From: Escherichia phage KEP4 | Length of the DNA: 64,000 nucleotides | Strand: one strand, 5' to 3' | Sequence record: PP047754 | Part shown: piece by piece, positions 102-41,389 of the stretch | Layout of the letters: each line of letters starts with the position of its first letter | Position numbering within the stretch: position 1 is the stretch's first letter | Notes under the pieces: generated by a model | Database searches by the model: none | Told to the model about the DNA's origin: nothing | Seen by the model: only the letters and a program-made list of their open reading frames with translations | Program-made: the position numbers and the translations under genes

Positions 102-158
102 AGTGTTCCCTCCCTTCCATGCAACTAACTTTACTACAATTATTTATTGAATAAAGCG

Positions 159-1044: not shown

Positions 1045-1051
1045 CTAAATA
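1045..1051 (+). promoter_or_regulatory. late-promoter-like box CTAAATA
   Basis: CTAAATA about 40 nt upstream of the baseplate gene start; analogue of the T4 late promoter TATAAATA. Confidence 0.4.
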
Positions 1052-1091
1052 TCTTCAACACCATATTCAAACTCAGGTGATGGAGATTATC

Positions 1092-3711: not shown

Positions 3712-3713
3712 AA

Positions 3714-4904
3714 ATGGCCGATTTCCTGAGTCAATATACAGGTCAGCAGATAGATCAGATATTGGGTTCTGTTGACGACAAAGTAAGTAAAAATGACGTT
3801 ATTAACGATTTTGAAGTTAACGACCCATTGTTTCCACCATCTGCTCGCCTGACATATGAGTTGAAAAGATCTGTTGACACAATCAATGATACTCTGGCCA
3901 ACAAAGTTATTCGTACAGATAGTGGTGAACAAACAATCAATGGCAAAAAGACTTTCAATGCGTTGTTGGTGACCAATGGGGGCATACAAGTCCCCGCCGG
4001 AAAATCCGTTTCAATCACAGATGAACCAACGAACTCGACAGATGGTGTTAACCTGAGCATGTTGAGAAAGCATGGCGTCAGTGAAGACACTACCCCGCCT
4101 GGTTCTGGTTTGGCTGGGGAGTTGTTGACATCCGGATATTACAAATTCAATTTGGATTTCACCAGATTGTCTGCGTATACCGGACCAACGTTGCCGACTT
4201 CAGTTCCTGTACAGACAGATTCTGGAGCGCGTTATTGGACAATGACTGCATTTTTTGATGCGTTGTTTGCAGACAACCGATTTAATGGATATGTGACAAC
4301 GACAGCGTATGACGCAGATATGCTGAGTCTAGAGTCTCAAATTAATAACATCAACACGTCGTTGAACGGGAAAGTCAACACCTCGACTTACAACACTAAG
4401 ATGGCGTCGTTGGATTTGAGTATCTCCAATATCAACACGTCTCTGGGTAATAAAGTCGAGGTCAGCACATATAATACGAAGATGACTTCCTTGGACGGCA
4501 GTATCAGTTCTCTCACGACTGGTAAGGTCGATGTATCAACGTATAATGCCAAAATGACCACAATTGATAACAGTTTAGGGAACGCAGTTTATCGCACAAA
4601 AACAAACTTGTCGTCATACACGGTTTCGGCTTCGGGAACGACGGCTCTTCCAGATTTTGATTTGGTGAACCTTTGTCAAATACTGGTAACTGCGCAATGG
4701 GGGACAGGTAACGTTGTTGACACATATCGAGTAACCATAACTCGTGACGGAACGATCAAATCAGAGTTGTTGGTTCAGAAAAGTACGAGTGGTACAGTGA
4801 CGTTCACAGGGTCTGTGGTGGGCGGTAAATTGAGAATTTCCGTTGTTAATGCGAATACAACAACTGCTTGTTCTGTCGATTATTCTATTGCAGCTTCTTT
4901 CTAA
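3714..4904 (+). CDS. tail fibre-like protein with tandem 27-aa repeats
   Basis: 396 aa; N-terminal KVIRTDSGEQTINGKKTFN fibre-type motif; central repeats NINTSLNGKV-TSTYNTKM-SLD. Confidence 0.6.
   Translation: MADFLSQYTGQQIDQILGSVDDKVSKNDVINDFEVNDPLFPPSARLTYELKRSVDTINDTLANKVIRTDSGEQTINGKKTFNALLVTNGGIQVPAGKSVSITDEPTNSTDGVNLSMLRKHGVSEDTTPPGSGLAGELLTSGYYKFNLDFTRLSAYTGPTLPTSVPVQTDSGARYWTMTAFFDALFADNRFNGYVTTTAYDADMLSLESQINNINTSLNGKVNTSTYNTKMASLDLSISNINTSLGNKVEVSTYNTKMTSLDGSISSLTTGKVDVSTYNAKMTTIDNSLGNAVYRTKTNLSSYTVSASGTTALPDFDLVNLCQILVTAQWGTGNVVDTYRVTITRDGTIKSELLVQKSTSGTVTFTGSVVGGKLRISVVNANTTTACSVDYSIAASF
4347..4580 (+). repeat. two full and one partial 81-bp in-frame tandem repeats inside the fibre gene
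   Basis: units start at 4347 and 4428 (aacatcaacacgtc / aatatcaacacgtc); third unit degenerate. Confidence 0.6.
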
Positions 4905-4909
4905 AACTA

Positions 4910-4946
4910 AATACCCCTAGATGACATGAATACATTTAGGGGTATT
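4910..4946 (+). promoter_or_regulatory. hairpin fused to late-promoter box (CTAAATACCCC at 4907-4917); 10-bp stem aataccccta/taggggtatt
   Basis: perfect inverted repeat 4910-4919 / 4937-4946; right-arm GGGG lies 8 nt before ATG 4951. Confidence 0.6.
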
Positions 4947-4950
4947 ACAA

Positions 4951-7900
4951 ATGGCCAACAAACCAACACAGCCTCTTTTCCCTTTGGGTTTAGAAACTTC
5001 TGAGTCTTCGAACATAAAAGGCTTCAACAACTCCGGCACTATTGAGCATTCCCCTGGTGCCGTAATGACATTTCCTGAAGATACTGAAGTTACAGGTCTT
5101 CCATCTTCTGTGCGTTACAATCCTGATAGTGATGAATTTGAAGGTTATTACGAAAACGGTGGTTGGTTGTCTTTGGGTGGCGGCGGAATACGCTGGGAAA
5201 CGCTCCCTTACGCTCCCTCTAGCAATTTGTTAGAAGGTCGCGGCTATCTCATTAATAATACGACAGGGACTTCTACAGTGGTTCTCCCTTCCCCTACGCG
5301 CGTTGGTGATTCAGTTACAATTTGTGATGCCTATGGGAAATTCGCGACGTATCCATTGACTGTATCTCCAGCGGGAAATAACCTGTACGGCTCCACCGAA
5401 GATATGACGATATCCACCGATAACGTGTCGGCGACTTTCACTTGGTCTGGTGCCGAGCAGGGTTGGGTTGTTACATCTGGTGTTGGCCTCGGCCAAGGTC
5501 GTGTGTACAGTCGTGAGATTTTCACTCAAATTTTAGCATCTGAAACAAGTGCTGTCACTCTCAATACTCCACCAACAATCGTGGACGTGTATGCTGACGG
5601 AAAACGTCTTGCGGAATCCAAATATTCACTAGATGGGAATGTAATCACTTTCGACCCTTCTTTACCTGCCAGCACTGAATTGCAGGTAATAGAATATACT
5701 CCGATTCAGTTGGGCACTGGCGGCGGGGGTTCGGGCGCTTCTGCAATCACCTGGATTTACAATGGCGGATCCGCTATTGGTGGCGAAACCGAAATAACGC
5801 TAGATATCGTTGTAGATGATGTTCCGGCTATTGATATAAACGGGTCTCGTCAGTACAAAAATCTTGGATTCACGTTCGACCCATTGACGAGTAAAATCAC
5901 TCTGACGCAAGAACTGGAACCAGAAGATGAAGTTGTTGTGGTTATAAATGGGACACCAAACATTTATAACCAAATCGATCGTTCTTTACAGGAAGTTGCT
6001 CGCGCCTACAATTTTACAAATGCTCAAGTTATTTTGAGCAACGATTATACTTCTGTTCTGGATAATAAAGTCGTTATTTATGATACGACATCCCAACGTT
6101 CTTGGGGGATTCCATCTGGAATCCCAGCAGGTTCTACAGTGGTTTCCGTCAATGGGGATCAACTGAAGTACAAAAATGGATCAACTGAAACCACTGTTAC
6201 ATTGGTGAGTGTACCAGGTAGTGCAGAGAAATTGAAGAACGATCTGGCTTCAAACTCTGGTTCAGGTATGTTGAAAACTTCTAGAGGTGATACCGTAGAA
6301 GAAGAATTGACTTTCATTAATCAGAATATGGTCGTTCAAATTTCAGATTTCGCGAGTCTTAGAACTTTAGTGCCAGCCACAGCGGGTATCCGAGTCAAAT
6401 TGAAAGGTTATTATTCTGGTTCTGAAATCGGTGGCGGAGAATTCATTTCTGTCGCTGGAGATGCTGTTGATGATGCTGGGATGATTGCTCGAGTGTCAAG
6501 CAGCTTCTATTGGAAGAGAATTATCGACAAACACATTACTCCTGGCATGTATGGCATCAAAGGGAATCTTCCAGAAGATCCGGCAGTGAAACTGAACGCT
6601 ATGTTTACGGCTGCGGCTGCGGCTAACGCTTATGTCTTACTGAACGATGTCGACACTCTGGTCTGTAAAAGCCCTGTCGTGATTCCAGCACATTCATTAG
6701 TGTACGGCAACAAACGAACTATACTGAAACGTGATGCATCGTTGTCATATGCTAATGATTTCTTGACAATTATGAATGATTCATATGTCAAGGGGATCTA
6801 TGTTGATGGTAGCCGTTTAGATTCTCAGACTCCTCTAGAAGCAGTTTTGGTGCGTATCGCTGGGAATGTAACTATCCATAAGAGTGAGATCCGAAACAAT
6901 GCTGGCTATGGCGTTGTTGGTAACGCAGTCCCTGGTATTCGTATCACCAAGAACATTTTTTCCAACTTCGCCAAAGGTTGTGTAGCCATGTTTGGCGACG
7001 GAACAGCGACGAGTGATGATCTGCAAATTAATGATAACAGATTCTTTAACCTGGGCGCGGGAACCATTTATGTTGGCGGTTACTCAAACTTCCTTGTCGA
7101 CAAAAACGTCGGAAGAGGCACTTACGTGGGTTCTCCAGGAAACCGTCTGTATGTTGTGACCAATACTAACGGGACTATCACCCAAAGCGCTGGGCCAGAT
7201 TTTGGGCCATTGAAAACGGGTATGTTCTTTGTATTGCCTGGTGGTTCTGAACATATGATAACGGCGGTCAACAGCCTTACCAGTGTGACAGTAACCCCAC
7301 CACCGCCGTCGAACGCCACAGTTCGTGCAATCGCAGGGACAGGGGATCTTCTGGGCATCCAATCATGCTCCTACGGCACCATCAGCCGTAACAACCTGAC
7401 CGATTGCGTGACTTACGGAACTGGTGGAGGCACGATGGAGGGGAGCACTCTGGGTTGCAATTATGTCACTTGGGAAGACAACTTCATCCGCAACACAGGT
7501 AAGAACGGAATCAACGTCGGGCAATCAGGCGCTGGGGTTGCCACGTGTTCTATCCTGAGGAACACTCTGATACAGGTTGGTAACGGCGGTCAGGGTGTTG
7601 GCCCAGCGTATCTTCTGCCTTGGTTCGATACGCTAGGTATCGCTCTGTATCAGGGAAACCCAGGTTATATGGCGAATATGGACGTCAGTGATAACAACGT
7701 CTCTACATGGTCTGGCGATCTGAATGACGGCGCTGCTTGGTTTGGTATGAGCGGTTGTACGGAAGCCACTGTGACTTGTACAGGCAACAAATCTTCTGGT
7801 TATTCCGACGGCTATGTTCGTGGAGATATATTAGAAGTCACGTTGACAGGTTATGGTACAGGGGCGGCTGCGACTTCATTCGTTAGTGATGGTGAGTCTA

Positions 7901-8124
7901 TACAGATAACCGTTCAAACAGGTACTTCACCAACAGCTTCACCTTATTTTTCAGTGCGGAAGGCGATCCGCACCCGCCATCAACCGATGATAACGGCGCA
8001 GATCGTCACCACAACTGGGAACATGTCTCATTGTTGGGGTATGCAATCTAGTACAGCAGGAAACTGGATGGTGGGTCAGAATACAACTCCTTCGGGGCTT
8101 ACGACATATTACGCAAAAGGGTAA
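4951..8124 (+). CDS. tailspike protein, long form (1057 aa) with N-terminal attachment domains and a C-terminal beta-helix-like region
   Basis: shares an internal module with ORF 10771 (SLQEVARAYNF...VVIYDTTSQRSWGIPSGIP vs SIQEIARSANV...VVYDVAAQTSYGLPTIP); Gly/Asn-rich periodic C-terminus. Confidence 0.7.
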   Translation: MANKPTQPLFPLGLETSESSNIKGFNNSGTIEHSPGAVMTFPEDTEVTGLPSSVRYNPDSDEFEGYYENGGWLSLGGGGIRWETLPYAPSSNLLEGRGYLINNTTGTSTVVLPSPTRVGDSVTICDAYGKFATYPLTVSPAGNNLYGSTEDMTISTDNVSATFTWSGAEQGWVVTSGVGLGQGRVYSREIFTQILASETSAVTLNTPPTIVDVYADGKRLAESKYSLDGNVITFDPSLPASTELQVIEYTPIQLGTGGGGSGASAITWIYNGGSAIGGETEITLDIVVDDVPAIDINGSRQYKNLGFTFDPLTSKITLTQELEPEDEVVVVINGTPNIYNQIDRSLQEVARAYNFTNAQVILSNDYTSVLDNKVVIYDTTSQRSWGIPSGIPAGSTVVSVNGDQLKYKNGSTETTVTLVSVPGSAEKLKNDLASNSGSGMLKTSRGDTVEEELTFINQNMVVQISDFASLRTLVPATAGIRVKLKGYYSGSEIGGGEFISVAGDAVDDAGMIARVSSSFYWKRIIDKHITPGMYGIKGNLPEDPAVKLNAMFTAAAAANAYVLLNDVDTLVCKSPVVIPAHSLVYGNKRTILKRDASLSYANDFLTIMNDSYVKGIYVDGSRLDSQTPLEAVLVRIAGNVTIHKSEIRNNAGYGVVGNAVPGIRITKNIFSNFAKGCVAMFGDGTATSDDLQINDNRFFNLGAGTIYVGGYSNFLVDKNVGRGTYVGSPGNRLYVVTNTNGTITQSAGPDFGPLKTGMFFVLPGGSEHMITAVNSLTSVTVTPPPPSNATVRAIAGTGDLLGIQSCSYGTISRNNLTDCVTYGTGGGTMEGSTLGCNYVTWEDNFIRNTGKNGINVGQSGAGVATCSILRNTLIQVGNGGQGVGPAYLLPWFDTLGIALYQGNPGYMANMDVSDNNVSTWSGDLNDGAAWFGMSGCTEATVTCTGNKSSGYSDGYVRGDILEVTLTGYGTGAAATSFVSDGESIQITVQTGTSPTASPYFSVRKAIRTRHQPMITAQIVTTTGNMSHCWGMQSSTAGNWMVGQNTTPSGLTTYYAKG

Positions 8125-8137
8125 TATTGAATGCCTA

Positions 8138-8171
8138 AATACCCCATATTGGTCATCCTTTATGGGGTATT
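8138..8171 (+). promoter_or_regulatory. hairpin fused to late-promoter box (CTAAATA 8135-8141); 11-bp stem aataccccata/tatggggtatt
   Basis: perfect inverted repeat 8138-8148 / 8161-8171; GGGG 7 nt before ATG 8175; near-identical copy at 10726-10765. Confidence 0.65.
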
Positions 8172-8174
8172 ATC

Positions 8175-10715
8175 ATGATTTCTCAATTCAATCAACCACG
8201 CGGTTCCACTTCCATAGAAGTTAACAAACAATCTATCGCTCGAAATTTCGGTGTCAAAGAAGACGAAGTCGTTTATTTCACTGTCGGTATTGACCTCAGT
8301 GGATTTAAAGTAATTTATGATGAGTCTACCCAACGGGCTTATTCTCTCCCTTCCGGTATTGTTTCAGGGACAACTGCAATTAGTCTGGATGAAAGAGCTA
8401 TCCTCACTCATTCTTCTGGCTCTGTTGACCTTGGGGAATTAGCAGTAAGCCGCGAAGAATATGTGACTTTACCTGGTTCTTTTAATTTCGGCCATACCAT
8501 TAATGTGAAAAATGAACTTCTTGTTCACGATGATGAAAAATATCGATGGGATGGTTCTTTGCCAAAGGTAGTTGCCGCTGGTTCTACACCCGATAACTCA
8601 GGCGGTGTTGGCACAGGCGCGTGGATACCTGTTGGCATTAATTCTTTGTCTGGCGATGGTGGTTGGTCGCGTATCGGATCAGAATTTGGTAAATCTTTGA
8701 AAGAACATATTCAAAGTCTTCCCAGCTTGTCTGCTGTCAAATATATGACATTTGTTGAATACGCAGCCCTTTTGGCAGGAAACGACACGGTCAATCATGA
8801 CGTTAAAGTTCAGCAAGTTATGGATGAAGCGCATGAATTGAAATGCTCTGTTTATTTTCCAACAGGGCGTTATGTATTTGACACTGCAGTCAACGTTTGG
8901 ACATACGTTCGCGCTGTTTGGGGAGACGGTTCGGCCATTATCACCAGACGTTACGGAAGTCAGTTTAGTTCCCCTGGGGTGATAGATCCGGCGCATGATA
9001 CGCGTAAATTATTCCGAATGATGGGCGGAGCGTTGGGACCGCAGTCTATTCATGGTCTTATTATTGATGGTAATGCGCGTTCATTTACAGTCCCAAAACA
9101 TACTGATTCGGATCAAACTTATCCCAACCAAACTTATTATGGCGATGTTGAACCAGTCGATGTTGGCCCATATGTATTTGGACCGGAAGGAAATACTTCT
9201 GTTCCTGGCGCTTCTTACTATAACCATGATAAGAAAGAATCCGGTCTGACCGTTTTCGATATGGTGTTTAAAGATCAACCTGGTGGTGGTGTCGTAGGTA
9301 ATGGCCAAAACGTCCGTGTGTTTGGAAATCACTTTATGGGTTGGTATGACCATGCTGTGTATATCGCCGGAAGTAACTTTGCCTCGGAAGGAGACGGAAT
9401 TTTGTGTAGTGATATTGTTGTCACTGGTAACGTATTCCGAAATCGTATTAACAATCGAGGCAATGGAGCAGTCAAAGCACGATTTGGTGTTAATCGTTAC
9501 GCAGTTACAGGCAACTCCTTTGATATAGTTGACTATTGCATGGCATTTGAGATGGGTAATGGACCAGCGACTCAACCATTTGGCCAAATTGTTGTGGACG
9601 GCAACGTGTGCACTTCAGATGGTATGTTTATGCAAATCGGGAATGATATTGGGACTGAGTGGTTCTCGACCAATTGGCTCAAATCAATGACTATTACGAA
9701 TAACACAGCACGGTCGTTGGATCGCATTTTCTTGTTAGGGGTTAGCGGATCTTCCAGTTATATTATGGATGGGTTTTCTGTACAAGTGGCCAATAACCGA
9801 TTTTATGCGCCGTCATTTTTGTCCGTGTACACATTCATGACGAATACGGAATGGATGTTGAATAACAATATCGTGGAGATCACAGGAACTGCTATGATCA
9901 CAGGAGTTGATCAATCGAACATCAACAATTCACGGATATATCTTAAAGATAATGTTTTAGGAGTTCTCCGGACTGATGTTCAAGGTTATGCTGCAGTCAG
10001 TAATTTTCAACAAGTTGAAATTTCTAATAATACATTGCGTAATTTGTATTTCCAAATAGGAAGTTATACCACAGATCTGTTTATTAAAGGAAATACTGTT
10101 AACTACACATCTGCATTATCCAGTAAAAACTTGGCGCTCATGTATTCAAGTGCTGGGAATGGTTTGATAACAGCCGATATCAGTGATAATAAGTTTTTCG
10201 GTGGAGTTGGTCGTTGCCAACTTAAATTCAGTAGCAGCGCTTCTCTGGATTGTATTAACAACAAATTCTTTACAACTTCGGCACCGTTTTTGGAATTGCA
10301 TCCGGCTGGTTATACTCCACGTGTCGTTCGTATAAAGGACAATTTAATGCGTGGTGCAGGCGTATTGCTGGCTCCTCTTGCTTCTGGTGTTTCTTTGTCC
10401 GGTGCTGGGAATTATATGGTAATTTCGGGAAACACGTTGATGGCTAATAACCCATCTGCGCCTGAAAATATAACTTTGTATCAGGACACAGGTGCGCAGA
10501 GTTGGGTGGCCCATTATGAAACTATCAGATGTGTTCGAAATGATTTCAAATCTGCGCTGTTGGCGATTAATGCAACAGGGACAGCACAATCTGGTTTGAG
10601 TACTACCAATAAATTCTGGTTCGGGGATAACGCGACGATTAATACCACGGTTGTTTGTACTTATCCTGCTGGCAACAAAGCCAACACCGACATCACCCAG
10701 ACAGTTTCAGTTTAA
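8175..10715 (+). CDS. tailspike protein (846 aa), parallel beta-helix type
   Basis: N-terminal ~150 aa paralogous to ORF 13591; middle region has pectate-lyase-like repeats (GNGQNVRVFGNHF, VTGNVFRN, VTGNSFD). Confidence 0.7.
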   Translation: MISQFNQPRGSTSIEVNKQSIARNFGVKEDEVVYFTVGIDLSGFKVIYDESTQRAYSLPSGIVSGTTAISLDERAILTHSSGSVDLGELAVSREEYVTLPGSFNFGHTINVKNELLVHDDEKYRWDGSLPKVVAAGSTPDNSGGVGTGAWIPVGINSLSGDGGWSRIGSEFGKSLKEHIQSLPSLSAVKYMTFVEYAALLAGNDTVNHDVKVQQVMDEAHELKCSVYFPTGRYVFDTAVNVWTYVRAVWGDGSAIITRRYGSQFSSPGVIDPAHDTRKLFRMMGGALGPQSIHGLIIDGNARSFTVPKHTDSDQTYPNQTYYGDVEPVDVGPYVFGPEGNTSVPGASYYNHDKKESGLTVFDMVFKDQPGGGVVGNGQNVRVFGNHFMGWYDHAVYIAGSNFASEGDGILCSDIVVTGNVFRNRINNRGNGAVKARFGVNRYAVTGNSFDIVDYCMAFEMGNGPATQPFGQIVVDGNVCTSDGMFMQIGNDIGTEWFSTNWLKSMTITNNTARSLDRIFLLGVSGSSSYIMDGFSVQVANNRFYAPSFLSVYTFMTNTEWMLNNNIVEITGTAMITGVDQSNINNSRIYLKDNVLGVLRTDVQGYAAVSNFQQVEISNNTLRNLYFQIGSYTTDLFIKGNTVNYTSALSSKNLALMYSSAGNGLITADISDNKFFGGVGRCQLKFSSSASLDCINNKFFTTSAPFLELHPAGYTPRVVRIKDNLMRGAGVLLAPLASGVSLSGAGNYMVISGNTLMANNPSAPENITLYQDTGAQSWVAHYETIRCVRNDFKSALLAINATGTAQSGLSTTNKFWFGDNATINTTVVCTYPAGNKANTDITQTVSV

Positions 10716-10730
10716 ATTGAATTGAGCCTA

Positions 10731-10765
10731 AATACCCCATATTGGCAAATCCTTTATGGGGTATT
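10731..10765 (+). promoter_or_regulatory. hairpin fused to late-promoter box (CTAAATA 10728-10734); copy of the 8138 element
   Basis: inverted repeat 10731-10741 / 10755-10765; the in-frame ATG at 10756 lies inside the right arm. Confidence 0.65.
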
Positions 10766-10770
10766 TTCAA

Positions 10771-13536
10771 ATGACCAGAAATGTAGAAGAATTATTCGGC
10801 GGCGTAATCACAGCTCCCCACCAGATTCCTTTCACTTATAAATCAAGTGTCGGTGGAGAAACTTTCTTTTCTCTACCTTTCTATCCTGTCACTGGCGTAG
10901 TCACAATTAACGGCGGCATGCAAGTTCCGTTAGACAACTTCGAGATAGACGGGAATACGTTGAATCTCGGGCGCGCATTGTCCAAAGGCGATGTTGTGTA
11001 TTGCTTATTCGATAAAATTCTTTCACCAGAAGACACTGCCAAAGGCATCCGCATATACAAATTTCAAGCCGTGGGTGGAGAAACTGAATTCACGCCTGAC
11101 TTTACTTCTTATGGTGTACAGTCTCTTTATATCGGTGGCGAATACAAAACTCCTGATATAGAATATTCCTATAACAGCACGACAGGGAAAGTGTCTTTGC
11201 AAACTGCATTGACTGCAGGCGTTTGGGTAGTCGCTGAAATGTCTGTTAAACAACCGAATATCAGTCCGGCGTTTGATCGCAGTATTCAAGAAATTGCCCG
11301 TTCTGCTAATGTGAAAGACTCTGAAGTCATCGTTAGTACGGACACCATATCTTTATTGGATGGGAAGAAAGTTGTTTATGACGTAGCGGCGCAAACCAGT
11401 TATGGCTTACCAACCATTCCTGATGGTTCTGTCATTTCTTCTGTTAGTAATGGGCAACTTACTTATAATCCAGGTAATGTTGTAGTGGATTTGTTACCTT
11501 TAGAAGATTCATTTATTAATGTGATAAACACTCTGGGGCGCAATGATGGTGCCAAGTATATCGGAGAATGCCATTCTGTTGCTGATCTCAGGAATACTGA
11601 ACCCACTATGGATGGACAACGCATTATTCTTAAGCAACACACTGCGGGTACTCTTCTTGGTGGAGGGGTATTCCGTGCGTTAATTGATGGTACAGGAAAG
11701 ACTGATGATAACGGCACTGTGATCAAAACTGTTGGCGGCGCAGCCTGGTTACGTGTTAATGCTGATAGAGTTAACCCATTCATGTTTGGTGCTTTGGGCG
11801 GTTCTAATGATGATACTATTCCAGTACAATCTTGTGTGGACAGTGGTAAGGCCACACAATTAACTGGTGTACATTACGTTAGCAATATCCGGTTAAAATA
11901 TAATACGTCGTCTATTTATGGGTCTGGATTACATTACTCCAGGTTGCATCAGTTGCCTTCTGCTACTGGGAATTGTATTACCATAAAAGATACATGCTCC
12001 CTTATTGTATTAGACTCCTTTGGGGTATATGGCACAGGTGCACAACAAGGCACATCATTTACTGCGGGTACAACAGGTATCTATATAGAAACTCCTTCAG
12101 GTCTCTCAGCCGATTATCCGTTCCACACTACCGCAGACCCAAGACGCGACTTGTGTATTTCTAAGGTCCATATAGCAGGTTTTGATGAATATGGGTTAAA
12201 TATTGATAGTGGTAACTTTAGTGTTACTACAGATTCTCTTTTAGTCAACCACATCAATCAGGTGGGCGTCCGTTGTGCTACTACTGATTGGACTTGGACA
12301 AATATTCAGGTTAATACCTGCGGTAAACAATGTCTGGTTCTTGATGGTTGTGGTAATGGTCGTATTATTGGTGGTAAATTCATTTGGGCTAACTGGCAAC
12401 CTTATGGTACAGTAGGACAGTTCCCAGGCATTACTATTAATAATAGCCAGAATATGGTTATTAATGGTATTGAGGTACAAGATTGTGGCGGGAATGGCAT
12501 TGAGATTAGCGATTCATATTCAATTTCCATGAACGGATTGAACACCAATCGTAACGGCATCAACGCTAACAACACTTTCTACAACATCGTATTTAACAAA
12601 AGTGATGCAGTTATCAACGGATTCGTAGGACTCAATTATGCTGCGAATAGTGGTTCAGGTGCTAACTCTAGTGCAGGCAATTTTCAGTTCCTGTCTAATG
12701 ATTGCAGCGTCACCATTAATGGTGTGGTTGAGACTGGTTATATGGGCATTAACTTTATTGGTGATAACAATATTATCAACCCCACAAATTCCGAACTGAG
12801 CATTAACGGATTGGTTAATTATTCCAAGACTGGTTTGCAAACCATGAACGAGACCCCTACATTTGATGGTGTTAGCACTACACCTGTTTATGTAAGTGTC
12901 CCATCTTCTGTAGGGCAAGTAAATGGTCTGAGACTATCACAAGCCAACAAAGATAAATTACTGTACTCAAGAACAGCAGGTCCAGAAGGTATTACCATGG
13001 CTGCTGTTGTAGTACCTACCATATCTGGAGCTGAAGTATTTAACTTCATGGCCATTGGTTCAGGGTTTAGTGATACATCCAACAGTCTTCATCTTCAATT
13101 AGTTATAGACGCTTCTGGAAAACAAACAATTGCTTTGCTATTGGGGGGCGATGGTACAACCCAAATTTTATCTGGGGATTTACCTAACGACCTTAAACTA
13201 CAAAGTGGTGTGCCATATCATATAGCTATTGGTGCTAAACCTGGATATTTCTGGTGGAGTATTCTTAATATTCAGACGGGTAAGAGAATCAGACGGTCAT
13301 TCCGAGGCGCTTATTTAGCTGTACCATTTAATTCTATATTCGGATTAACTTCTTCATTAACATTCTTCTCGGATAGCAATGCTGGTGGGGATGCCTGTTC
13401 TGGTGTAGGTGCTAAAGTGTATGTTGGTATGTTCTCTTCTGAGAATGATTATGTAGCTTCACGGTACTACAACCTGATTAATCCTGTAGACCCTAATAAG
13501 TTAATTAGTTACCGTATATTGGATTCTTCTATTTAA
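10771..13536 (+). CDS. tailspike protein (921 aa) with N-terminal attachment domains and beta-helix
   Basis: start set to ATG 10771 (hairpin-spacer-ATG as at 4951 and 8175) rather than track ATG 10756; repeats GNGRIIGG, NGIEVQDCGGNGIEISD. Confidence 0.7.
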   Translation: MTRNVEELFGGVITAPHQIPFTYKSSVGGETFFSLPFYPVTGVVTINGGMQVPLDNFEIDGNTLNLGRALSKGDVVYCLFDKILSPEDTAKGIRIYKFQAVGGETEFTPDFTSYGVQSLYIGGEYKTPDIEYSYNSTTGKVSLQTALTAGVWVVAEMSVKQPNISPAFDRSIQEIARSANVKDSEVIVSTDTISLLDGKKVVYDVAAQTSYGLPTIPDGSVISSVSNGQLTYNPGNVVVDLLPLEDSFINVINTLGRNDGAKYIGECHSVADLRNTEPTMDGQRIILKQHTAGTLLGGGVFRALIDGTGKTDDNGTVIKTVGGAAWLRVNADRVNPFMFGALGGSNDDTIPVQSCVDSGKATQLTGVHYVSNIRLKYNTSSIYGSGLHYSRLHQLPSATGNCITIKDTCSLIVLDSFGVYGTGAQQGTSFTAGTTGIYIETPSGLSADYPFHTTADPRRDLCISKVHIAGFDEYGLNIDSGNFSVTTDSLLVNHINQVGVRCATTDWTWTNIQVNTCGKQCLVLDGCGNGRIIGGKFIWANWQPYGTVGQFPGITINNSQNMVINGIEVQDCGGNGIEISDSYSISMNGLNTNRNGINANNTFYNIVFNKSDAVINGFVGLNYAANSGSGANSSAGNFQFLSNDCSVTINGVVETGYMGINFIGDNNIINPTNSELSINGLVNYSKTGLQTMNETPTFDGVSTTPVYVSVPSSVGQVNGLRLSQANKDKLLYSRTAGPEGITMAAVVVPTISGAEVFNFMAIGSGFSDTSNSLHLQLVIDASGKQTIALLLGGDGTTQILSGDLPNDLKLQSGVPYHIAIGAKPGYFWWSILNIQTGKRIRRSFRGAYLAVPFNSIFGLTSSLTFFSDSNAGGDACSGVGAKVYVGMFSSENDYVASRYYNLINPVDPNKLISYRILDSSI

Positions 13537-13540
13537 AAAT

Positions 13541-13562
13541 ATACCCCTCTTCGGAGGGTATT
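13541..13562 (+). terminator. terminator-like hairpin (tacccctc-ttcg-gagggta) followed by TTT
   Basis: GC stem with ttcg tetraloop directly after stop 13536; shares the ATACCCC motif with the promoter hairpins. Confidence 0.5.
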
Positions 13563-13590
13563 TACTAGAGAAAAACAGGAGATTCTTATT

Positions 13591-15825
13591 ATGAATCCGC
13601 AATTTGCTCAACCAAAAGGTTCTACTTCAAAAGAATCGAATAAAGATAGCATCGCCCGTAAATTTGGGTGCAAAAAGTCGGAAGTCGTTTATGCGAAATC
13701 AGGACAGTCCTTGTCTGGTTATAAGGTTATTTATGACAAGGAAACACAGAGAGCGTATTCCTTGCCTGTAGATATTCCAGCAGGAACCACGGTTATTAGC
13801 CTTAGCGCCAGTGCTCTGCTTGTACACTCTGGGGGTTCTGTAGACCTGGGCGAACTAGCTTCCCAACGCAATGAATATAATGTATTACCTGGTTCTTTTA
13901 CTACTGGTGCAATAGTATCCACAAAGAATGATGTACTTACCCACAATGGTATCCAGTATCGTTGGAATGGTTCATTACCTAAAGTTGTACCTCAGAACTC
14001 TTTACCATCCAGTGATGATAATTGGATTGGCTTGGGTGCTTCTTATCTGAAGGAACAGCTTAACAGTACCAGTGGTGCATCCATGGTAGTACTGGCTAAT
14101 GGCAAAACCATTGAAGAAGAATTTGCCGAAGAAGCTGCATGGCAGAACCAAGAGAATATGGTGAGAACCGTTATTCCTAATGTTTATCACCATATCCGTG
14201 GCGTTCAGCGTCACTCTGGTAAAAACTTAGCATGGTCTGCTCCAGACGTTGCTATTGATAAACTTAACCCTACGGATACCGTCTTCTACCGTATGCCCCA
14301 GATTGTTAAAACTGGTGATGGTACTCTGATGATTTTCTGTAATGAGTTGCATGGTAACAATACAGATATTGGTGCTACTCCAGATCAGCAATGTAATATC
14401 GTTATGAAATACTCCATTGATAATGGGTGGTCTTGGTCGGCTAAGGTAGTGGTAGCTAACTTTGGGGCTACGTATCAGAACGGTGAGATTGCTGCTGTGT
14501 ATAACCCAGCAGATGGTCGGGTATACTGTTACTTTACTTCCTGCAAAGGCCAGTTGGGTTGGGGATACTCACAGCCAGGCAATGACCCTAATACATCATC
14601 CCAGATATATGTTACCTACTGTGATGCGGAAGCTCCTACTATATGGCGTACACCAGCTAACCTTACTGCTACCCTTAAGCCAGCAACGGCAGATTTTATC
14701 TGGACTTCACCAACTAAACCAGTTGTTTTACCGGATGGTAAGATGGCAATGATTGTGTCTACCGTCACTGGTTCACGGGTTGATTCTTTCCTTACCATCA
14801 TGAAGTATGACATTAAGTACAGCATGGACTACGTACTTAGTTCCGAAGAATCTGGTGGGGAAGTCGGACTGAACCTTTTGCCGGATGGTCGTATGGTGAT
14901 GAACTCTCGTGCTTACCACACCACAGACCTTAAAGGGCTTCAGAAATTCTATATCAGTGATCATCAGTTTAAGAACTGGCAGCACTTATCTGATTTAGTT
15001 ACATCGGATAGTAAGGGTGACCTGGTTCCTATTTTTGATGGGGTTAATGGTGTTCTTACTTGGGCGTTTACTTGTGCTAATGGTGTAGGTGATAATTCTA
15101 TTGGTCGTACTAACTACCGAGTATGGATTAGTCGTGACCTAGTTACTTGGGGGTTAGCTCCTACTGGGGATATCAACACAAGTGATTCTGTTGGGTACAT
15201 CGCATCAATGCCTGGTGGTGATGATGGTTATGTAATCTCTACATCTGAATCAGGTGGTTTTGGTGGTATTTGGTTTACTCAATGGAATGCTAAGTATATC
15301 CAGAACAGAAACTACAACCGCTATCACAAAGAGTTGCGAGAATTAGAGTCAGTAGATGAAACAGCAATGCTCGCATCCGGTGCTATTCCTAACTACTCTT
15401 TTTACGTAAACAAAGACTCCAACCTAATTAACTTCAACCGCAACGGTACTCCAGTTAAGATTCAGCAGTTGGGGGTTAGTCAGAATGCTGTTGATAAGTA
15501 CACTACAACTCAGACCCTAGCATCTATTCCTGTAGATGGTGTTGATATTGTATTAGTCACTGGTTCTGGTACTACTCTTACCCTTAGTGGGTTTAGCGGT
15601 GGATATATGGGCCAGCGTGTGACAGTTATCTCTGATTCATCTGGTGGTGGGGTGGTGCTTAAACGTGCTGATACAACATTGCCTACTGTAACGGACAGAT
15701 TCCACTTTAATGTGGCAGGAGCCTTTACTGCTTTGAGGGTAGACTATGCAACTAAGATGATGGCTACTTTAGTTAAGACTCCATCTGGTTGGTTCACGGA
15801 AAGTATTGCTAACGTAACAATCTAA
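13591..15825 (+). CDS. tailspike protein (744 aa) with sialidase/BNR-like beta-propeller catalytic domain
   Basis: AGGAG SD 9 nt upstream; N-terminal anchor domain paralogous to ORF 8175; FYRMPQIV (RIP-like) motif and Asp-box SIDNGWSW. Confidence 0.65.
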   Translation: MNPQFAQPKGSTSKESNKDSIARKFGCKKSEVVYAKSGQSLSGYKVIYDKETQRAYSLPVDIPAGTTVISLSASALLVHSGGSVDLGELASQRNEYNVLPGSFTTGAIVSTKNDVLTHNGIQYRWNGSLPKVVPQNSLPSSDDNWIGLGASYLKEQLNSTSGASMVVLANGKTIEEEFAEEAAWQNQENMVRTVIPNVYHHIRGVQRHSGKNLAWSAPDVAIDKLNPTDTVFYRMPQIVKTGDGTLMIFCNELHGNNTDIGATPDQQCNIVMKYSIDNGWSWSAKVVVANFGATYQNGEIAAVYNPADGRVYCYFTSCKGQLGWGYSQPGNDPNTSSQIYVTYCDAEAPTIWRTPANLTATLKPATADFIWTSPTKPVVLPDGKMAMIVSTVTGSRVDSFLTIMKYDIKYSMDYVLSSEESGGEVGLNLLPDGRMVMNSRAYHTTDLKGLQKFYISDHQFKNWQHLSDLVTSDSKGDLVPIFDGVNGVLTWAFTCANGVGDNSIGRTNYRVWISRDLVTWGLAPTGDINTSDSVGYIASMPGGDDGYVISTSESGGFGGIWFTQWNAKYIQNRNYNRYHKELRELESVDETAMLASGAIPNYSFYVNKDSNLINFNRNGTPVKIQQLGVSQNAVDKYTTTQTLASIPVDGVDIVLVTGSGTTLTLSGFSGGYMGQRVTVISDSSGGGVVLKRADTTLPTVTDRFHFNVAGAFTALRVDYATKMMATLVKTPSGWFTESIANVTI

Positions 15826-15831
15826 AATACA

Positions 15832-15857
15832 AGCCCCCAATAAGGGGGCTTTCTTTT
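15832..15857 (+). terminator. rho-independent terminator (agccccc-aataa-gggggct + TTCTTTT)
   Basis: 7-bp GC stem plus U-tract after the tailspike block. Confidence 0.75.
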
Positions 15858-15955: not shown

Positions 15956-18900
15956 ATGCAATCTACAAATTTAAACCGTCGCCCGTATTGGGATGACTGG
16001 AATCCTGGGAAACGTTTTTCACGGATTCTTTTTCGTCCGATGCCTATCAAGGTTCAGACTCGCGAACTGAATCAGATGCAGACTATTCTTCAGGATCAAA
16101 TTGAAAAACTGGGCAACCATTTGTTCAAAGATGGTTCTATGGTTATCCCTGGCGGTTTGACGATCACTAACGCCGCAGTCTCTTTGAAATTCACTTTGGC
16201 TGGTGGTACTGAATTCACTGATCTGGAAGGTATTTCTGAACTCTACGTTTTGGGGAAAGACAATAACGCCAAAGCGCGTGTGCTGTCTCTTGAACGTGAT
16301 CTGTCTGCTCCTGATACAATGCTGGCTATCCTTGAGATGACTGAAGCGGGTAATGCTGACGGATTCCATGTTAACGATAATCTGTATTTCCAGACTTACG
16401 ACGTGAATGATAATTTCATTCGTATTGGTTATGGGATCGCGGCTGCTGTGACTGGTTCTATCGTTGCTCGTATGACGAAAGGCGTTTACTTCATTCGTGG
16501 GATGTTCCTAGACGTTGATGACGCGACTCTTATCGTTGATAAAACTTCGAACACGTCTTCCCACCGCGTCGGATTTAAAGTCACTGAAACCATCGTGACT
16601 GAATCTGAAGACGAATCCCTTTATTCAAATGCTCAGGGAACGATTAACTCCAAAGCCCCAGGCGCTCATCGTCTTCGAATAGATCTGGTCTTATCTCGAT
16701 TTGATTATGATGCTGTGGTTGAAGACTTTGTTGAACTGGCCAAAGTTCGTGATGGTAAAATCCAGTCTATGGTGACTCAGTCCACCTATAATATTCTGGA
16801 AGACACGTTGGCCCAACGGACGTATGAAACCAACGGCGATTACAACGTTTCAACGCACCAGATCGACATCCGCGAACACCTGAAAGTCAATAACAATGGT
16901 GGTGTATTCAATGCTGCTGATGGCGGCGACGAAAGTAAATTCGTGTCTGTAATGAAACCAGGTATTTCCTATGTTCGCGGTCGCCGTATCGAAAACGTCG
17001 GGGAAGAGTTGGTGATCGTTGATAAGGCGCGGGATACCGATGTCCTGAACAACACCCCTGTTGCGGTGGCCACAGGCAATTATCTGGTCACTAAGAATTC
17101 TAAAGGTGTGCCAGTGATATCCCGCACCGTTCGATACAAATTACTGAATGCTTCAGGCGTTACCCAGGCTACAGCACTTTGTATATCAGCTGAACGTAAT
17201 TCAACAGAATTTCGTCTGTATATGCGCGACCTGGTCGTTACTGGCGATGCATCCACTATCACCAAAGTGTCTTACGAAGAAAGCGGTATCACCATGTTCT
17301 CTGCTGAACTGGAATCCAATCAGTTTAACCAGAGTTCTATGATAGATCTGATCTTCTCTCTTCCGGTATTCGGTGTCAAGACTTTAGCACCAACTGGCTC
17401 CGTGGATATCAACTACACTGTTCTCAGAACGTATAAAGTGACGTTGGACAACAGCGGCGCGGGTTCTATTTCTGCTCCATTGGGATATAGTTTTTCCCCA
17501 GAATTTTCGTTGTACTCTGCAGCGAAATCTGATGGTTCTGAAGCGCAGTTCGATATCTCTGGTTCTTTGTCTTTGACTGGTTCTCCGGTCGGTTCGGCGT
17601 TGCAGATTTCTCTGGGCAGTGGTAATGCTAACCAGTCAATCAATTTGCTGGCGCTGATGATTCGTACCACGGCCACAATCAAAACGAAGACCATCACTGA
17701 AACAACTGAAACAGTGACGTTCACCTCGCAGACTAGCCACCCTTTGGCGAATCACGATGGTTGGAAATTGGTGTCGGTCAAAAACGATACTGGCGCAGAC
17801 GTGACCTCCAGCTTCGTCCTAGATGGCGGACAGCGTGATGCAGGGTATTACAAGTCTAACTTGTTATCCAGCGCTGGAGCAATCTCAGGGACGTATACAG
17901 TGGTGTATCAATACTTCGCCCACAGTTCCGGTGATTTCTTCTCTGCTGATTCGTATACTTCGATGGATTATAAAGATATCCCGAATTATACATCTTCTAC
18001 ATCAGGCGCGGTGTACGGCCTGGCAGATAGTTTGGATTTCCGTCCGAAAATCACCAACGGAACTTCTGACACAGATATGGTTCGTCCAAACACTGCAGTT
18101 ATTCTGGACACAGAATATTATCTGCCGCGTATTGACGCGATTTATCTGGCAGATAACGGTGTGTTTGGTGTGGCTCGTGGCATCAGTTCGAACAATCTGG
18201 CTTCTCCAGCAATCCCAGCGAACGCCATGCGTTTGTATGAATTGTTGATCCCACCGTATACGCCGAATATTGATGATATCCAAATTCGCACTATTGACAA
18301 TCGTCGTTATACGATGCGCGATATCGGTAAACTGGAAACCCGTATTTCCAATGTTGAATACTATACCTCTCTGTCACAGTTGGAATCTTCAGCGATGACA
18401 CAGCAAGTGTTTGACCCCATCACGGGTAATCCTCGTTTCAAAAATGGTATTGCAGCTGATCCGTTCAAAGACTTCCGGTTGATTGATGACTTGTCTGAAG
18501 ATTGGATGGGTTCTATCGATACCGAAAACGGACGTCTGCGCCCGTTTGTACAACAAAACGTTGTTGACATGACTCCGGTTGGCTGGAACAAAGTGATGGA
18601 TGGGATGGTGGTTTGTAATTACACGCCTGAAATCTCAGTGAACCAAGAATATGCGACGACGACGATCAACGTTAACCCGTATGCAGTATTCAACTGGGAA
18701 GGTTTCTTGAAGATTAACCCGACCACGGACTACTGGTTCGAAAACTATTATGTTGCCCCGCGTATTATTAATGAAACGATCAACACCCGTGGTACTGTAC
18801 AAGAAGGTTCAGTGTACGGAACATGGCGGACTGTTTCTGTTTCTGATCGTGTTTGGGAGCCGCATGGTGCTGGTGGTGTGTGGTGGGGATATCGTTACCG

Positions 18901-22456: not shown

Positions 22457-22461
22457 AAGTC

Positions 22462-41363: not shown

Positions 41364-41389
41364 CTCCATAATATTGGGGGAAATTAGTG

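What the first reader, a model, noticed from the sequence alone, without database searches (positions are those of the whole stretch)
4951..15825. Four tandem tailspike paralogs built from shuffled modules
Four large ORFs (1057, 846, 921, 744 aa) lie head to tail. The 4951 and 10771 proteins share a middle module; the 8175 and 13591 proteins share an N-terminal anchor domain; the C-terminal enzymatic domains all differ. This mosaic pattern is typical of a branched multi-spike adsorption apparatus (as in CBA120/Vi1-type phages, by established knowledge) and marks a recombination hot spot that determines host range.
Basis: partly seen in the sequence, partly recalled or inferred. Interest (0 to 1): 0.5.

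Follow-up and report, generated by a model that had tools for sequence, protein, structure and literature searches.

The report
Kuttervirus four-tailspike host-recognition gene cluster

Summary
Window 4951-15825 holds four intact head-to-tail ORFs of 1057, 846, 921 and 744 aa. They lie between baseplate-wedge genes and a VriC-like gene, as in every Kuttervirus (Ackermannviridae). They correspond to TSP4, TSP3, TSP2 and TSP1.

- **Identity to published proteins:** each is at least 97.5% identical to a published phage protein (Vi01, ECML-4, AR2819 or CBA120).
- **Shared modules:**
  - T1 275-543 matches T3 100-348 (30.5% identity, E 8e-29). This stretch is XD3, the D1 head, the neck and D3'.
  - T2 1-160 matches T4 1-162 (57% identity, E 8e-48). 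This is the D1-D2 head.
- **C-terminal parts:** they are unrelated in sequence. Three are beta-helices. T3 matches the CBA120 O157-specific TSP2 and keeps its catalytic residues. T4 is a sialidase-like (GH33) beta-propeller whose receptor is unknown.
- **Module exchange:** receptor-binding modules are 97-100% identical in DNA between phages whose backbones are only 83-93% identical. ECML-4 keeps a 3' remnant of this window's TSP3.
- **Intergenic elements:** conserved promoter-like hairpin elements precede three of the genes.

Novelty: already known. Interest is low.

The parts
1041..3711 (+). Upstream flank: gp6-like baseplate wedge gene (mechanical ORF 1041-2873; likely true start near 1080) and a second wedge-subunit gene (2824-3711).
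   Evidence: Pfam Gp6-like_1st and Gp6_C-I, and Baseplate_wedge at E 5e-154. The same genes are annotated in ECML-4, Vi01 and CBA120.
3714..4904 (+). 396-aa conserved structural protein directly upstream of tsp4 ('putative tail fibre' in Vi01). Function unknown.
   Evidence: phrog_3838 at E 1e-218. Weak BppL_N hit below the Pfam cut-off. Annotations.
4907..4947 (+). Promoter-like CTAAATACCCC followed by a hairpin. The 3' arm TAGGGGTATT carries the only Shine-Dalgarno-like G-run before the T1 ATG.
   Evidence: Exact motif occurs 3 times against 0.49 expected. Hairpin -19.1 kcal/mol, z -6.5. Conserved in 5 relatives.
4951..5970 (+). T1 (tsp4) residues 1-340: baseplate anchor AD (1-79), XD1 (80-178), XD2 (~179-250) and XD3 (~251-335). 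This is the hub of the branched complex.
   Evidence: PDB 7REJ/7RFO covers 1-339 at E 1e-212. 87-100% identity per 40-aa block to CBA120 TSP4 up to residue ~320, 67% for 321-360, then declining. Domain limits come from PMC8825819.
5971..6585 (+). T1 residues 341-545: divergent D1 head (GSTVVSV at 394 in place of GTTAVSL), no D2, then neck and D3'. It is the TSP2-like half of the 'middle module' shared with T3.
   Evidence: BLAST T1 275-543 to T3 100-348 at E 8e-29. z 24 for D1 and 15 for neck plus D3'. 38-residue gap against CBA120 TSP4 where D2 lies, and no PF18668 hit. Motif.
6586..8124 (+). T1 residues 546-1057: beta-helix receptor-binding and depolymerase module, subtype TSP4-12 (Maynard, Vi01 and ECML-4 type). 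Receptor unknown.
   Evidence: Pfam Beta_helix at 631-719. At least 99% identical in 21 phage records. Subtype via AR2819 gp53 in PMC10892097 and 98.3% identity.
8135..8171 (+). Promoter-like CTAAATACCCC plus hairpin before T2.
   Evidence: (-19.6 kcal/mol, z -5.2).
8175..8654 (+). T2 (tsp3) residues 1-160: D1-D2 head, the docking module (GTTAISL at 65).
   Evidence: PF18668 at E 1.5e-30. PDB 5W6F/6NW9 covers 1-164 at E 1e-91. 57% identical to T4 1-162. Motif.
8655..10715 (+). T2 residues 161-846: right-handed beta-helix receptor-binding module of the rare Vi01 type. Receptor unknown.
   Evidence: Among 50,697 phage records, found complete only in Vi01, plus a 3' remnant in ECML-4. AF2 model pLDDT 75, and >90 over most of 540-800. 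Foldseek hits to CBA120 TSP3 and TSP1, HK620 tailspike and PL6 lyases. Homologues sit on T7-type and P22-type spikes.
10728..10766 (+). Promoter-like CTAAATACCCC plus hairpin before T3. It contains the spurious upstream ATG at 10756.
   Evidence: (-18.8 kcal/mol, z -3.9).
10771..11274 (+). T3 (tsp2) residues 1-168: XD2 (1-88) and XD3 (89-168). In CBA120, XD2 binds TSP4 and XD3 offers the TSP3 docking site.
   Evidence: Full-length match to 6W4Q. XD3 against T1 XD3 gives z 10. Roles come from PMC8825819.
11275..11754 (+). T3 residues 169-328: D1 head (169-244), neck, and D3' (270-328).
   Evidence: Domain limits from PMC7506556. Similarity to T1.
11755..13536 (+). T3 residues 329-921: beta-helix D3 plus D4, subtype TSP2-1, an E. 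coli O157 O-antigen glycosidase.
   Evidence: 97.5% identical to CBA120 TSP2, with 23 substitutions and no gaps. Asp506, Glu568, Asp571, Tyr623 and Arg594 are conserved. Function shown for CBA120 in PMC7506556 and PMC8432352.
13541..13561 (+). Short variant hairpin (ATACCCCTC TTCG GAGGGTAT) in the T3-T4 spacer, followed by a separate AGGAG ribosome-binding site.
   Evidence: The fold is not better than shuffles for the whole spacer.
13591..14070 (+). T4 (tsp1) residues 1-160: D1-D2 head (GTTVISL at 65), predicted to dock on TSP4 XD3.
   Evidence: PF18668 at E 2e-8. PDB 4OJ5, 5W6F and 9D84 heads at E 1e-46 to 1e-53. Motif. Docking role from PMC8825819.
14218..15285 (+). T4 residues ~210-565: six-bladed beta-propeller of GH33 sialidase type, subtype TSP1-20. 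Candidate catalytic residues are R234, D259, E424, R440, R506 or R510, and Y536.
   Evidence: phmmer hits to sialidases at E 1e-9. Model pLDDT 70-90 in this region. Foldseek top hits are about 50 GH33 sialidases, best E 2e-17. All candidate residues are invariant in alignment A1. R234, D259, E424 and R440 align to identical residues of P. gingivalis sialidase, D259 with its D219.
15337..15825 (+). T4 residues 583-744: all-beta C-terminal domain of unknown role.
   Evidence: Secondary structure and pLDDT 60-89 in the model. Conserved in homologues.
15831..15851 (+). Intrinsic-terminator-like hairpin plus T-run that closes the tsp cluster.
   Evidence: 8 pairs, 6 GC. (-15.5 kcal/mol, z -3.1).
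15956..20794 (+). Downstream flank: VriC/VrlC-like 1612-aa virion protein, the marker gene used to locate tsp clusters.
   Evidence: Pfam DUF4815 at E 4e-61. Annotations. Its use as a landmark is in PMC8432352.

Best explanation
Window 4951-15825 is the tsp4-tsp3-tsp2-tsp1 cluster of a Kuttervirus (Ackermannviridae) myophage. Its four trimeric tailspikes assemble into one branched receptor-binding complex per baseplate position.

**Assembly, inferred by homology to CBA120.**
- T1 (TSP4) attaches to the baseplate through its N-terminal anchor domain.
- T1's XD2 domain holds T3 (TSP2) through T3's own XD2.
- T1's XD3 domain holds the D1 head of T4 (TSP1).
- The head of T2 (TSP3) docks on T3's XD3 in the TSP2:TSP4 complex.

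**Receptor recognition.** Each C-terminal module binds and cleaves a different surface polysaccharide, so one virion can adsorb to several serotypes.
- T3 targets the E. coli O157 O-antigen.
- T1 (TSP4-12 type) and T2 (Vi01 type) are beta-helix depolymerases with unidentified receptors.
- T4 (TSP1-20) is a sialidase-fold propeller. It probably hydrolyses a sialic-acid-like (nonulosonic or ulosonic acid) linkage in an unidentified glycan.

**Evolution of host range.** Host range changes by homologous recombination at the conserved docking modules and at conserved about 40-nt intergenic elements. This swaps receptor-binding modules or whole genes between phages.
For: **Shown here.**
- Gene order and flanks match ECML-4, AR2819, Guerrero, Vi01 and CBA120.
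- T1 1-339 matches 7REJ. T3 is 97.5% identical to CBA120 TSP2 with catalytic residues intact. The T2 and T4 heads match PF18668 and the CBA120 TSP3 and TSP1 heads.
- Module similarities are far above shuffles.
- T2 is a beta-helix. T4 is a GH33-like propeller with conserved catalytic candidates.
- Mosaic breakpoints fall at domain borders.
- Receptor-binding modules are 97-100% identical in DNA against 83-93% for the backbone.
- ECML-4 gp191 is a 3' remnant of this TSP3 type.
- T2-type and T4-type modules occur on T7-type (PF03906) and P22-type (PF09008) spikes and in bacterial chromosomal contigs.
- Conserved junction elements are present.

**From the literature.**
- Assembly topology (PMC8825819).
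- O157 specificity and catalytic residues (PMC7506556; PMC8432352).
- Experimental tsp exchange (PMC11414711).
- The TSP1-20 homologue is abundant in the Sajous1 virion by mass spectrometry (PMC10892097).
Against: - No assembly or activity was measured for this phage.
- T1's head differs from CBA120 TSP4: D1 is divergent and D2 is absent. The detailed geometry may therefore differ.
- Sequence similarity between T1 XD2 and T3 XD2 is not detectable (z 1.8). That contact rests on near-identity to the CBA120 proteins.
- Receptors of T1, T2 and T4 are unknown.
- For T4, only four of the catalytic candidates are aligned to a solved sialidase. The model has a moderate overall pLDDT of 66.
Confidence: 0.93

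Rival explanations
1. The four genes are ordinary tandem paralogues. They arose by duplication in place followed by divergence, with no exchange of modules with other phages.
For: The N-terminal modules are true paralogues: D1 occurs in all four, XD3 in T1 and T3, and D1-D2 in T2 and T4. An ancient duplication therefore did happen.
Against: - The C-terminal parts share no similarity, and one has a different fold.
- The same modules occur at 97-100% DNA identity in phages whose backbone is 83-93% identical.
- They also occur on unrelated T7-type and P22-type spikes.
- ECML-4 retains a remnant of a replaced module.
Confidence: 0.03
2. The sialidase-like domain of T4 is a catalytically dead binding module, or it acts on something other than a nonulosonic acid. 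T4 would then be an adhesin rather than a depolymerase.
For: - Only about 18-20% identity to solved sialidases.
- Only one canonical Asp-box.
- The third arginine and the tyrosine are assigned by invariance and spacing only.
- No host has been linked to subtype TSP1-20 in the papers read.
Against: - R234 (in an R-x-P motif), D259, E424 and R440 align with identical residues of P. gingivalis sialidase, including its catalytic Asp219.
- All candidates are invariant in homologues down to 39% identity.
Confidence: 0.3
3. One or more of the four ORFs is a decaying or unexpressed remnant, so the phage carries fewer than four working spikes.
For: Remnants do exist in this gene cluster in relatives (ECML-4 gp191). 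Some Ackermannviridae lack TSP3 (PMC8432352).
Against: - All four ORFs are full length and at least 97.5% identical to full-length orthologues.
- Each has a promoter-like motif or ribosome-binding site.
- Spacers are 50-55 nt with no leftover fragments.
Confidence: 0.04

Closest known systems
Escherichia phage CBA120 TSP1-4 branched tailspike complex (orf210-213; PDB 4OJ5, 6W4Q/5W6P, 5W6F/6NW9, 5W6H, 7REJ)
   Same: - Same gene order and flanks.
- The TSP4 N-terminal hub is 87-100% identical per 40-aa block up to residue ~320 and 67% for 321-360.
- TSP2 is 97.5% identical, including catalytic residues.
- The TSP3 head is about 91% identical.
- The TSP1 head is homologous.
   Different: - The receptor-binding parts of TSP4, TSP3 and TSP1 are unrelated to those of CBA120.
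- T1 has a TSP2-like head with D1 only, where CBA120 TSP4 has D1-D2.
- T4 is a propeller, not a beta-helix.
Salmonella phage Vi01 (ViI) tail spike cluster Vi01_173c-170c
   Same: T1 and T2 are 98.3% identical to Vi01_173c and Vi01_172c. DNA is collinear over window 1-11499. Among the phage records searched, Vi01 is the only one with the complete T2 module.
   Different: From T3 residue ~243 onward, Vi01 carries its Vi-capsule-specific spike and a 596-aa TSP1, in place of the O157 module and the sialidase-like TSP1.
Escherichia phage ECML-4 and Salmonella phage AR2819 tsp clusters
   Same: T1, T3 and T4 are 98.2-99.3% identical. These are the best overall genome matches, about 94% over 25 kb.
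   Different: Their TSP3 carries another receptor-binding module (627 or 698 aa). ECML-4 keeps only a 91-codon 3' remnant of the window-type TSP3.
Bacterial GH33 exo-sialidases (for example P. gingivalis PG_0352, PDB 8FEB) and phage K1F endosialidase
   Same: Six-bladed propeller fold, with R, D, E and R active-site residues aligned for T4. K1F shows that propeller-type sialidases can serve as tailspikes (established knowledge; PMC12632334 is listed).
   Different: Only about 18-20% identity to GH33 enzymes. No hit to GH58 endosialidase chains in the sequence search. Here the domain is mounted on a Kuttervirus D1-D2 head, and the substrate is unknown.
Phage T4 gp10 and phage G7C gp66/gp63.1 branching adaptors
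   Same: The XD2 and XD3 jelly-roll docking domains used to hang one trimer on another (PMC8825819).
   Different: The relationship is structural and distant. It was not tested independently here beyond identity to 7REJ.

Membership tests
Ackermannviridae (Kuttervirus) TSP1-4 branched tailspike cluster | Up to four adjacent tsp genes between a baseplate-wedge gene and vriC | tested here: met
   ORFs and Pfam results for the flanks. Identical layout in five annotated relatives. The criterion is stated in PMC8432352.
Ackermannviridae (Kuttervirus) TSP1-4 branched tailspike cluster | TSP4 with N-terminal AD-XD1-XD2-XD3 hub | tested here: met
   T1 1-339 against 7REJ at E 1e-212. 87-100% identity per 40-aa block to CBA120 TSP4 up to residue ~320 and 67% for 321-360.
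Ackermannviridae (Kuttervirus) TSP1-4 branched tailspike cluster | TSP2 with N-terminal XD2-XD3 followed by a D1-only head | tested here: met
   T3 1-921 against 6W4Q, 97.5% identical and ungapped.
Ackermannviridae (Kuttervirus) TSP1-4 branched tailspike cluster | TSP1 and TSP3 start directly with a D1-D2 head (Pfam PF18668) | tested here: met
   PF18668 in T2 (E 1.5e-30) and T4 (E 2e-8). PDB head matches.
Ackermannviridae (Kuttervirus) TSP1-4 branched tailspike cluster | Physical assembly of the four trimers into one branched complex on the baseplate | not testable with these tools
   Inferred from CBA120 ultracentrifugation, EM and crystallography (PMC8825819).
Ackermannviridae (Kuttervirus) TSP1-4 branched tailspike cluster | Conserved GTTAVSL-type motif at the end of D1 in TSP1, TSP3 and TSP4 (proposed recombination site) | tested here: met
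   T2 has GTTAISL at 65, T4 has GTTVISL at 65, and T1 has a degenerate GSTVVSV at 394. T3 has none, as reported for TSP2 (PMC8432352).
TSP2-1 subtype (O157 O-antigen glycosidase) | At least 75% identity to CBA120 TSP2, with catalytic Asp506, Glu568 and Asp571 | tested here: met
   97.5% identity. D506, E568, D571, Y623 and R594 are all present. The 75% cut-off is from PMC8432352.
TSP2-1 subtype (O157 O-antigen glycosidase) | Cleavage of O157 LPS, or infection of O157 strains | not testable with these tools
   Shown for CBA120 and several relatives only.
Right-handed parallel beta-helix tailspike depolymerases (T1, T2, T3 C-terminal parts) | Beta-helix fold of the receptor-binding domain | tested here: met
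   T1: Pfam Beta_helix. T2: AF2 model plus Foldseek hits to CBA120 TSP3 and TSP1, and HK620. T3: crystal structures 5W6P and 6W4Q of a 97.5% identical protein.
GH33 sialidases (T4 C-terminal part) | Six-bladed beta-propeller fold | tested here: met
   Model region 210-565 at pLDDT 70-90. Foldseek E 2e-17 to 8FEB and about 50 other GH33 structures.
GH33 sialidases (T4 C-terminal part) | Catalytic set: Arg triad, Asp acid/base, Glu-Tyr nucleophile pair | tested here: inconclusive
   R234 (Y-R-M-P), D259, E424 and R440 align to identical residues of PG_0352, D259 with D219. The third Arg (R506 or R510) and Tyr (Y536) are assigned only by invariance and spacing.
GH33 sialidases (T4 C-terminal part) | Asp-box repeats (S-x-D-x-G-x-T-W) | tested here: inconclusive
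   One canonical box, SIDNGWSW at 275, and one degenerate, SRDLVTW at 514. Pfam BNR models did not reach threshold.
GH33 sialidases (T4 C-terminal part) | Hydrolysis of a sialic-acid glycoside | not testable with these tools
   No assay is possible, and no receptor for TSP1-20 appears in the papers read.

The most novel reading that the evidence does not exclude
**T4 as a new substrate class.** T4 (subtype TSP1-20) may be a catalytically active GH33-type sialidase mounted on the Kuttervirus branched complex. It would give these phages access to hosts whose O-antigen or capsule contains sialic acid or a related nonulosonic or ulosonic acid. That substrate class and fold have not been described for Ackermannviridae tailspikes in the papers found here.

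**Junction elements as gene-exchange and expression cassettes.** The conserved CTAAATACCCC-hairpin junction elements may be combined late promoters and translational gates. In read-through transcripts the ribosome-binding site would be sequestered, while transcripts started at the gene's own promoter would leave it free. The same elements could double as portable homology arms for whole-gene cassette exchange.
Probability: 0.35. Interest if true: 0.35.

Novelty: already known. Interest (0 to 1): 0.14.

Why it matters
The cluster sets which serotypes the phage can adsorb to. Here that almost certainly includes E. coli O157, through T3. It is also the part that engineers swap to retarget Ackermannviridae phages for detection and biocontrol.

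For this window, the value is a clean annotation:
- Subtype set: TSP4-12, Vi01-type TSP3, TSP2-1 and TSP1-20.
- Domain borders usable as chimera junctions.
- Two open receptor questions: the rare Vi01-type TSP3 module and the sialidase-like TSP1-20.

It adds no new principle.

Tried and rejected
1. I first guessed from coverage figures that T2 belonged to the common TSP3-1 subtype (Salmonella O:4/O:9). tblastn showed the complete T2 module only in Vi01, and AR2819 and Guerrero TSP3-1 share only the head. The guess was rejected.
2. Looking up the contig that encodes T2 by exact sequence found nothing on record. The cluster look-up only showed an unnamed 156,357-bp NCBI contig carrying the exact T1 and T2, so the source phage's name remains unknown.
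3. The sigma-70 promoter scan found fewer sites than in shuffles (33 against 38.2). It gives no evidence for host-type promoters in the cluster.
4. A literature search for the CTAAATA motif as a late promoter returned only unrelated papers. The 2011 CBA120 paper says the late promoter of this family was unidentified. I recall a 'CTAAATAcCcc' consensus from the 2012 Viunalikevirus genus proposal, but I could not verify it.
5. Sequence similarity between T1 XD2 and T3 XD2, and between XD2 and XD3 within each protein, is at or near noise (z -0.5 to 3.4). These relationships rest on published structures and HMM work, not on my tests.
6. Pfam found no sialidase or BNR domain in T4 at E <= 0.01. The assignment needed the PDB sequence search and the fold search.
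7. The weak T1c-T2c similarity (z 4.4) is treated as beta-helix repeat noise, not as homology.

Full report
**What is there.** The region holds four + strand ORFs separated by 50-55 nt:
- T1, 4951-8124, 1057 aa
- T2, 8175-10715, 846 aa
- T3, 10771-13536, 921 aa, with an in-frame ATG at 10756 that would give 926 aa
- T4, 13591-15825, 744 aa

Upstream lie a gp6-like baseplate wedge gene, a second wedge gene and a conserved 396-aa structural gene. Downstream lies a 1612-aa VriC-like gene with DUF4815.

Megablast places the window in Kuttervirus (Ackermannviridae). ECML-4 and AR2819 match about 94% over 25 kb, and 218 records, mostly Salmonella and Escherichia phages, match parts of the cluster. 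Annotated relatives have the same layout.

**Check of the stated similarities.**
- T1 275-543 aligns with T3 100-348 at 30.5% identity, E 8e-29.
- T2 1-160 aligns with T4 1-162 at 57% identity, E 8e-48.
- Using published CBA120 domain limits (PMC8825819; PMC7506556), the T1/T3 'middle module' resolves into XD3 (z 10 against shuffles), the D1 head (z 24) and neck plus D3' (z 15).
- The T2/T4 module is the D1-D2 head. Pfam PF18668 covers the D2 part.
- The C-terminal parts show no meaningful pairwise similarity (z <= 4.4).

**Identity of each protein.**
- **T1.** It is 98.2-98.3% identical to Vi01_173c, ECML-4 gp193 and AR2819 gp53. The last is typed TSP4-12 (PMC10892097).
  - Its first 339 residues match the CBA120 TSP4-N crystal structure (7REJ, E 1e-212). 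Identity per 40-aa block is 87-100% up to residue ~320, 67% for 321-360, and then collapses inside D1.
  - T1 has no PF18668 hit, and it shows a 38-residue gap where CBA120 TSP4 has D2. Its head is therefore TSP2-like, with D1 only.
  - Its C-terminal part hits Pfam Beta_helix and is at least 99% identical in 21 phage records.
- **T2.** It is 98.3% identical to Vi01_172c.
  - Its head is about 91% identical to CBA120 TSP3. Its receptor-binding part (residues 165-846) is complete in only one other phage among 50,697 records, Vi01.
  - An AlphaFold model (pLDDT 75, and >90 over most of 540-800) is a right-handed beta-helix. Foldseek matches CBA120 TSP3 and TSP1, HK620 tailspike and PL6 lyases.
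  - In the large protein collection the module also sits behind T7-type (PF03906) and P22-type (PF09008) N-termini, and is encoded on E. coli, Salmonella and E. fergusonii chromosomal contigs at 52-85% identity.
- **T3.** It is 97.5% identical to CBA120 TSP2, with 23 substitutions and no gaps. Asp506, Glu568, Asp571, Tyr623 and Arg594 are conserved. It belongs to subtype TSP2-1, the O157 O-antigen glycosidase (PMC7506556; PMC8432352).
- **T4.** It is 99.3% identical to ECML-4 gp189, subtype TSP1-20.
  - After the D1-D2 head it is not a beta-helix. Sequence search hits GH33 sialidases at E 1e-9.
  - The model (propeller region pLDDT 70-90) matches about 50 GH33 sialidase structures, best E 2e-17.
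  - R234 (in Y-R-M-P), D259, E424 and R440 align with identical residues of P. gingivalis sialidase. D259 pairs with its catalytic Asp219.
  - These four, together with R506, R510 and Y536, are invariant in homologues down to 39% identity.
  - A homologue is among the most abundant virion proteins of phage Sajous1 (PMC10892097). No receptor is reported in the papers I could read.

**How it most likely works.** This is inferred by homology to CBA120 (PMC8825819).
- T1 anchors to the baseplate through its AD domain.
- T1 XD2 binds T3 through T3's XD2.
- T1 XD3 binds the D1 head of T4.
- The T2 head docks on T3 XD3 in the TSP2:TSP4 complex.
- Each C-terminal module then binds and cleaves its own polysaccharide, giving a multi-serotype host range.

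The sequence relationships are shown here. Assembly and activities are inferred.

**Recombination.**
- Against Vi01, the window is collinear from 1 to 11499 (T1, T2 and T3 residues 1-243). It then diverges until after T4, apart from a 200-nt patch at the T3-T4 junction.
- Against ECML-4, similarity breaks at 8590 (T2 residue ~139) and resumes at 10373.
- Against Guerrero, it breaks at 6002 (T1 residue ~351).
- At the protein level, the breaks fall at the XD3/D1 border or within D1 (T1), at the end of D2 (T2), at the end of D1 (T3) and within D1 (T4).
- A 500-nt identity profile shows shared receptor-binding modules at 97-100% identity, embedded in docking modules and backbone at 83-93%. The modules are therefore younger than the genomes that carry them.
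- ECML-4 gp191 (91 aa) is 98.9% identical to the last 91 residues of T2. It sits just behind ECML-4's own shorter TSP3, so it is a remnant of module replacement.

This agrees with the comparative and engineering literature (PMC8432352; PMC11414711; PMC11721090).

**Junction elements, noticed in passing.**
- An exact CTAAATACCCC lies upstream of T1, T2 and T3. That is 3 exact copies in 64 kb against 0.49 expected.
- Its ATACCCC(A)TA part pairs with a TA(T)GGGGTAT arm that ends 5-7 nt before the ATG. The resulting hairpins fold at -18.8 to -19.6 kcal/mol (z -3.9 to -6.5).
- The distal stem differs between junctions while pairing is kept.
- The same elements sit at the same junctions in five relatives.
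- [CT]TAAATA[CT] is biased 13:3 to the coding strand, and most copies lie shortly upstream of ORF starts. Several have similar hairpins that cover a Shine-Dalgarno-like run.
- I read these as T4-type late-promoter-like motifs fused to a hairpin, acting as a terminator and/or a mask for the ribosome-binding site. This is inference only.
- The T1-T2 and T2-T3 elements are nearly identical, so they could also serve as homology arms for whole-gene exchange.

**Verdict.** The system is the textbook Kuttervirus TSP1-4 cluster, and every protein has a published orthologue at 97.5% identity or more.

The particular combination of TSP4-12, Vi01-type TSP3, TSP2-1 and TSP1-20 is absent from the phage collection searched. 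The best single-record coverage is 83%. The combination does exist elsewhere:
- An unnamed 156,357-bp NCBI contig carries the exact T1 and T2.
- Other assemblies appear to pair T2-type and T4-type proteins, judged by matching contig lengths.

Interest is low. The only mildly open points are the receptors of T1, T2 and the sialidase-fold T4, and the role of the junction hairpins.

Noticed in passing
window 4907-4947, 8135-8171, 10728-10766 (variant at 13541-13561); also 38181-38206, 22432-22462, 41357-41387: A conserved CTAAATACCCC motif resembling the T4 late promoter is fused to a hairpin. The 3' arm of the hairpin carries the Shine-Dalgarno-like G-run just before the start codon. The motif has 3 exact copies against 0.49 expected, and the hairpins fold at about -19 kcal/mol. 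The distal stem varies with pairing kept. The elements are conserved at the same junctions in CBA120, Vi01, ECML-4, AR2819 and Guerrero. Possible roles are promoter plus terminator, a gate on the ribosome-binding site, or a homology arm for cassette exchange.
   Followed up: partly
L001 (ECML-4) 11365-11707, corresponding to window 10373-10715: ECML-4 carries a 91-codon ORF (gp191) that is 98.9% identical to the C-terminal end of this window's T2. It lies just downstream of ECML-4's own, different TSP3. It is a remnant showing that the ECML-4 lineage once had the window/Vi01-type TSP3 and replaced its receptor-binding part.
   Followed up: yes
window 6001-8000, 8501-10500, 11501-15800 versus flanks 1-5500 and 17001-17500: Receptor-binding modules are 97-100% identical in DNA to the relatives that share them. 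The baseplate genes, docking modules and parts of vriC are only 83-93% identical. The modules therefore spread more recently than the backbones diverged. There is also a sharp dip to 85% at 17001-17500 inside vriC against ECML-4, AR2819, Guerrero and Vi01, but 100% against CBA120, which suggests mosaicism inside vriC as well.
   Followed up: partly
window 10756 versus 10771: The mechanical ORF list starts T3 at ATG 10756 (926 aa, as annotated in phage Guerrero). That ATG lies inside the conserved hairpin. ATG 10771 gives the 921-aa protein of the CBA120 crystal structure and has the G-run 8-11 nt upstream.
   Followed up: yes
window 1041-1095: The gp6-like wedge ORF is listed from TTG 1041, but a CTAAATA motif overlaps that position. 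ECML-4's annotated start maps to ATG 1080, so the real start is probably 1080 or 1092.
   Followed up: partly
window 13591-15825 (T4) and homologues P0005, P0007: The sialidase-like module also occurs behind a T7-type tail-fibre N-terminus (PF03906, P0005). It also occurs in an Enterobacter hormaechei chromosomal contig (P0007, carrying PF13088, a BNR-repeat sialidase-type domain). The module therefore moves between phage types.
   Followed up: no
window 3714-4904: A conserved 396-aa protein lies directly upstream of tsp4. It is annotated 'putative tail fibre' in Vi01. It has only a sub-threshold BppL_N hit and an unknown-function PHROG. Its role next to the TSP complex is unclear.
   Followed up: no
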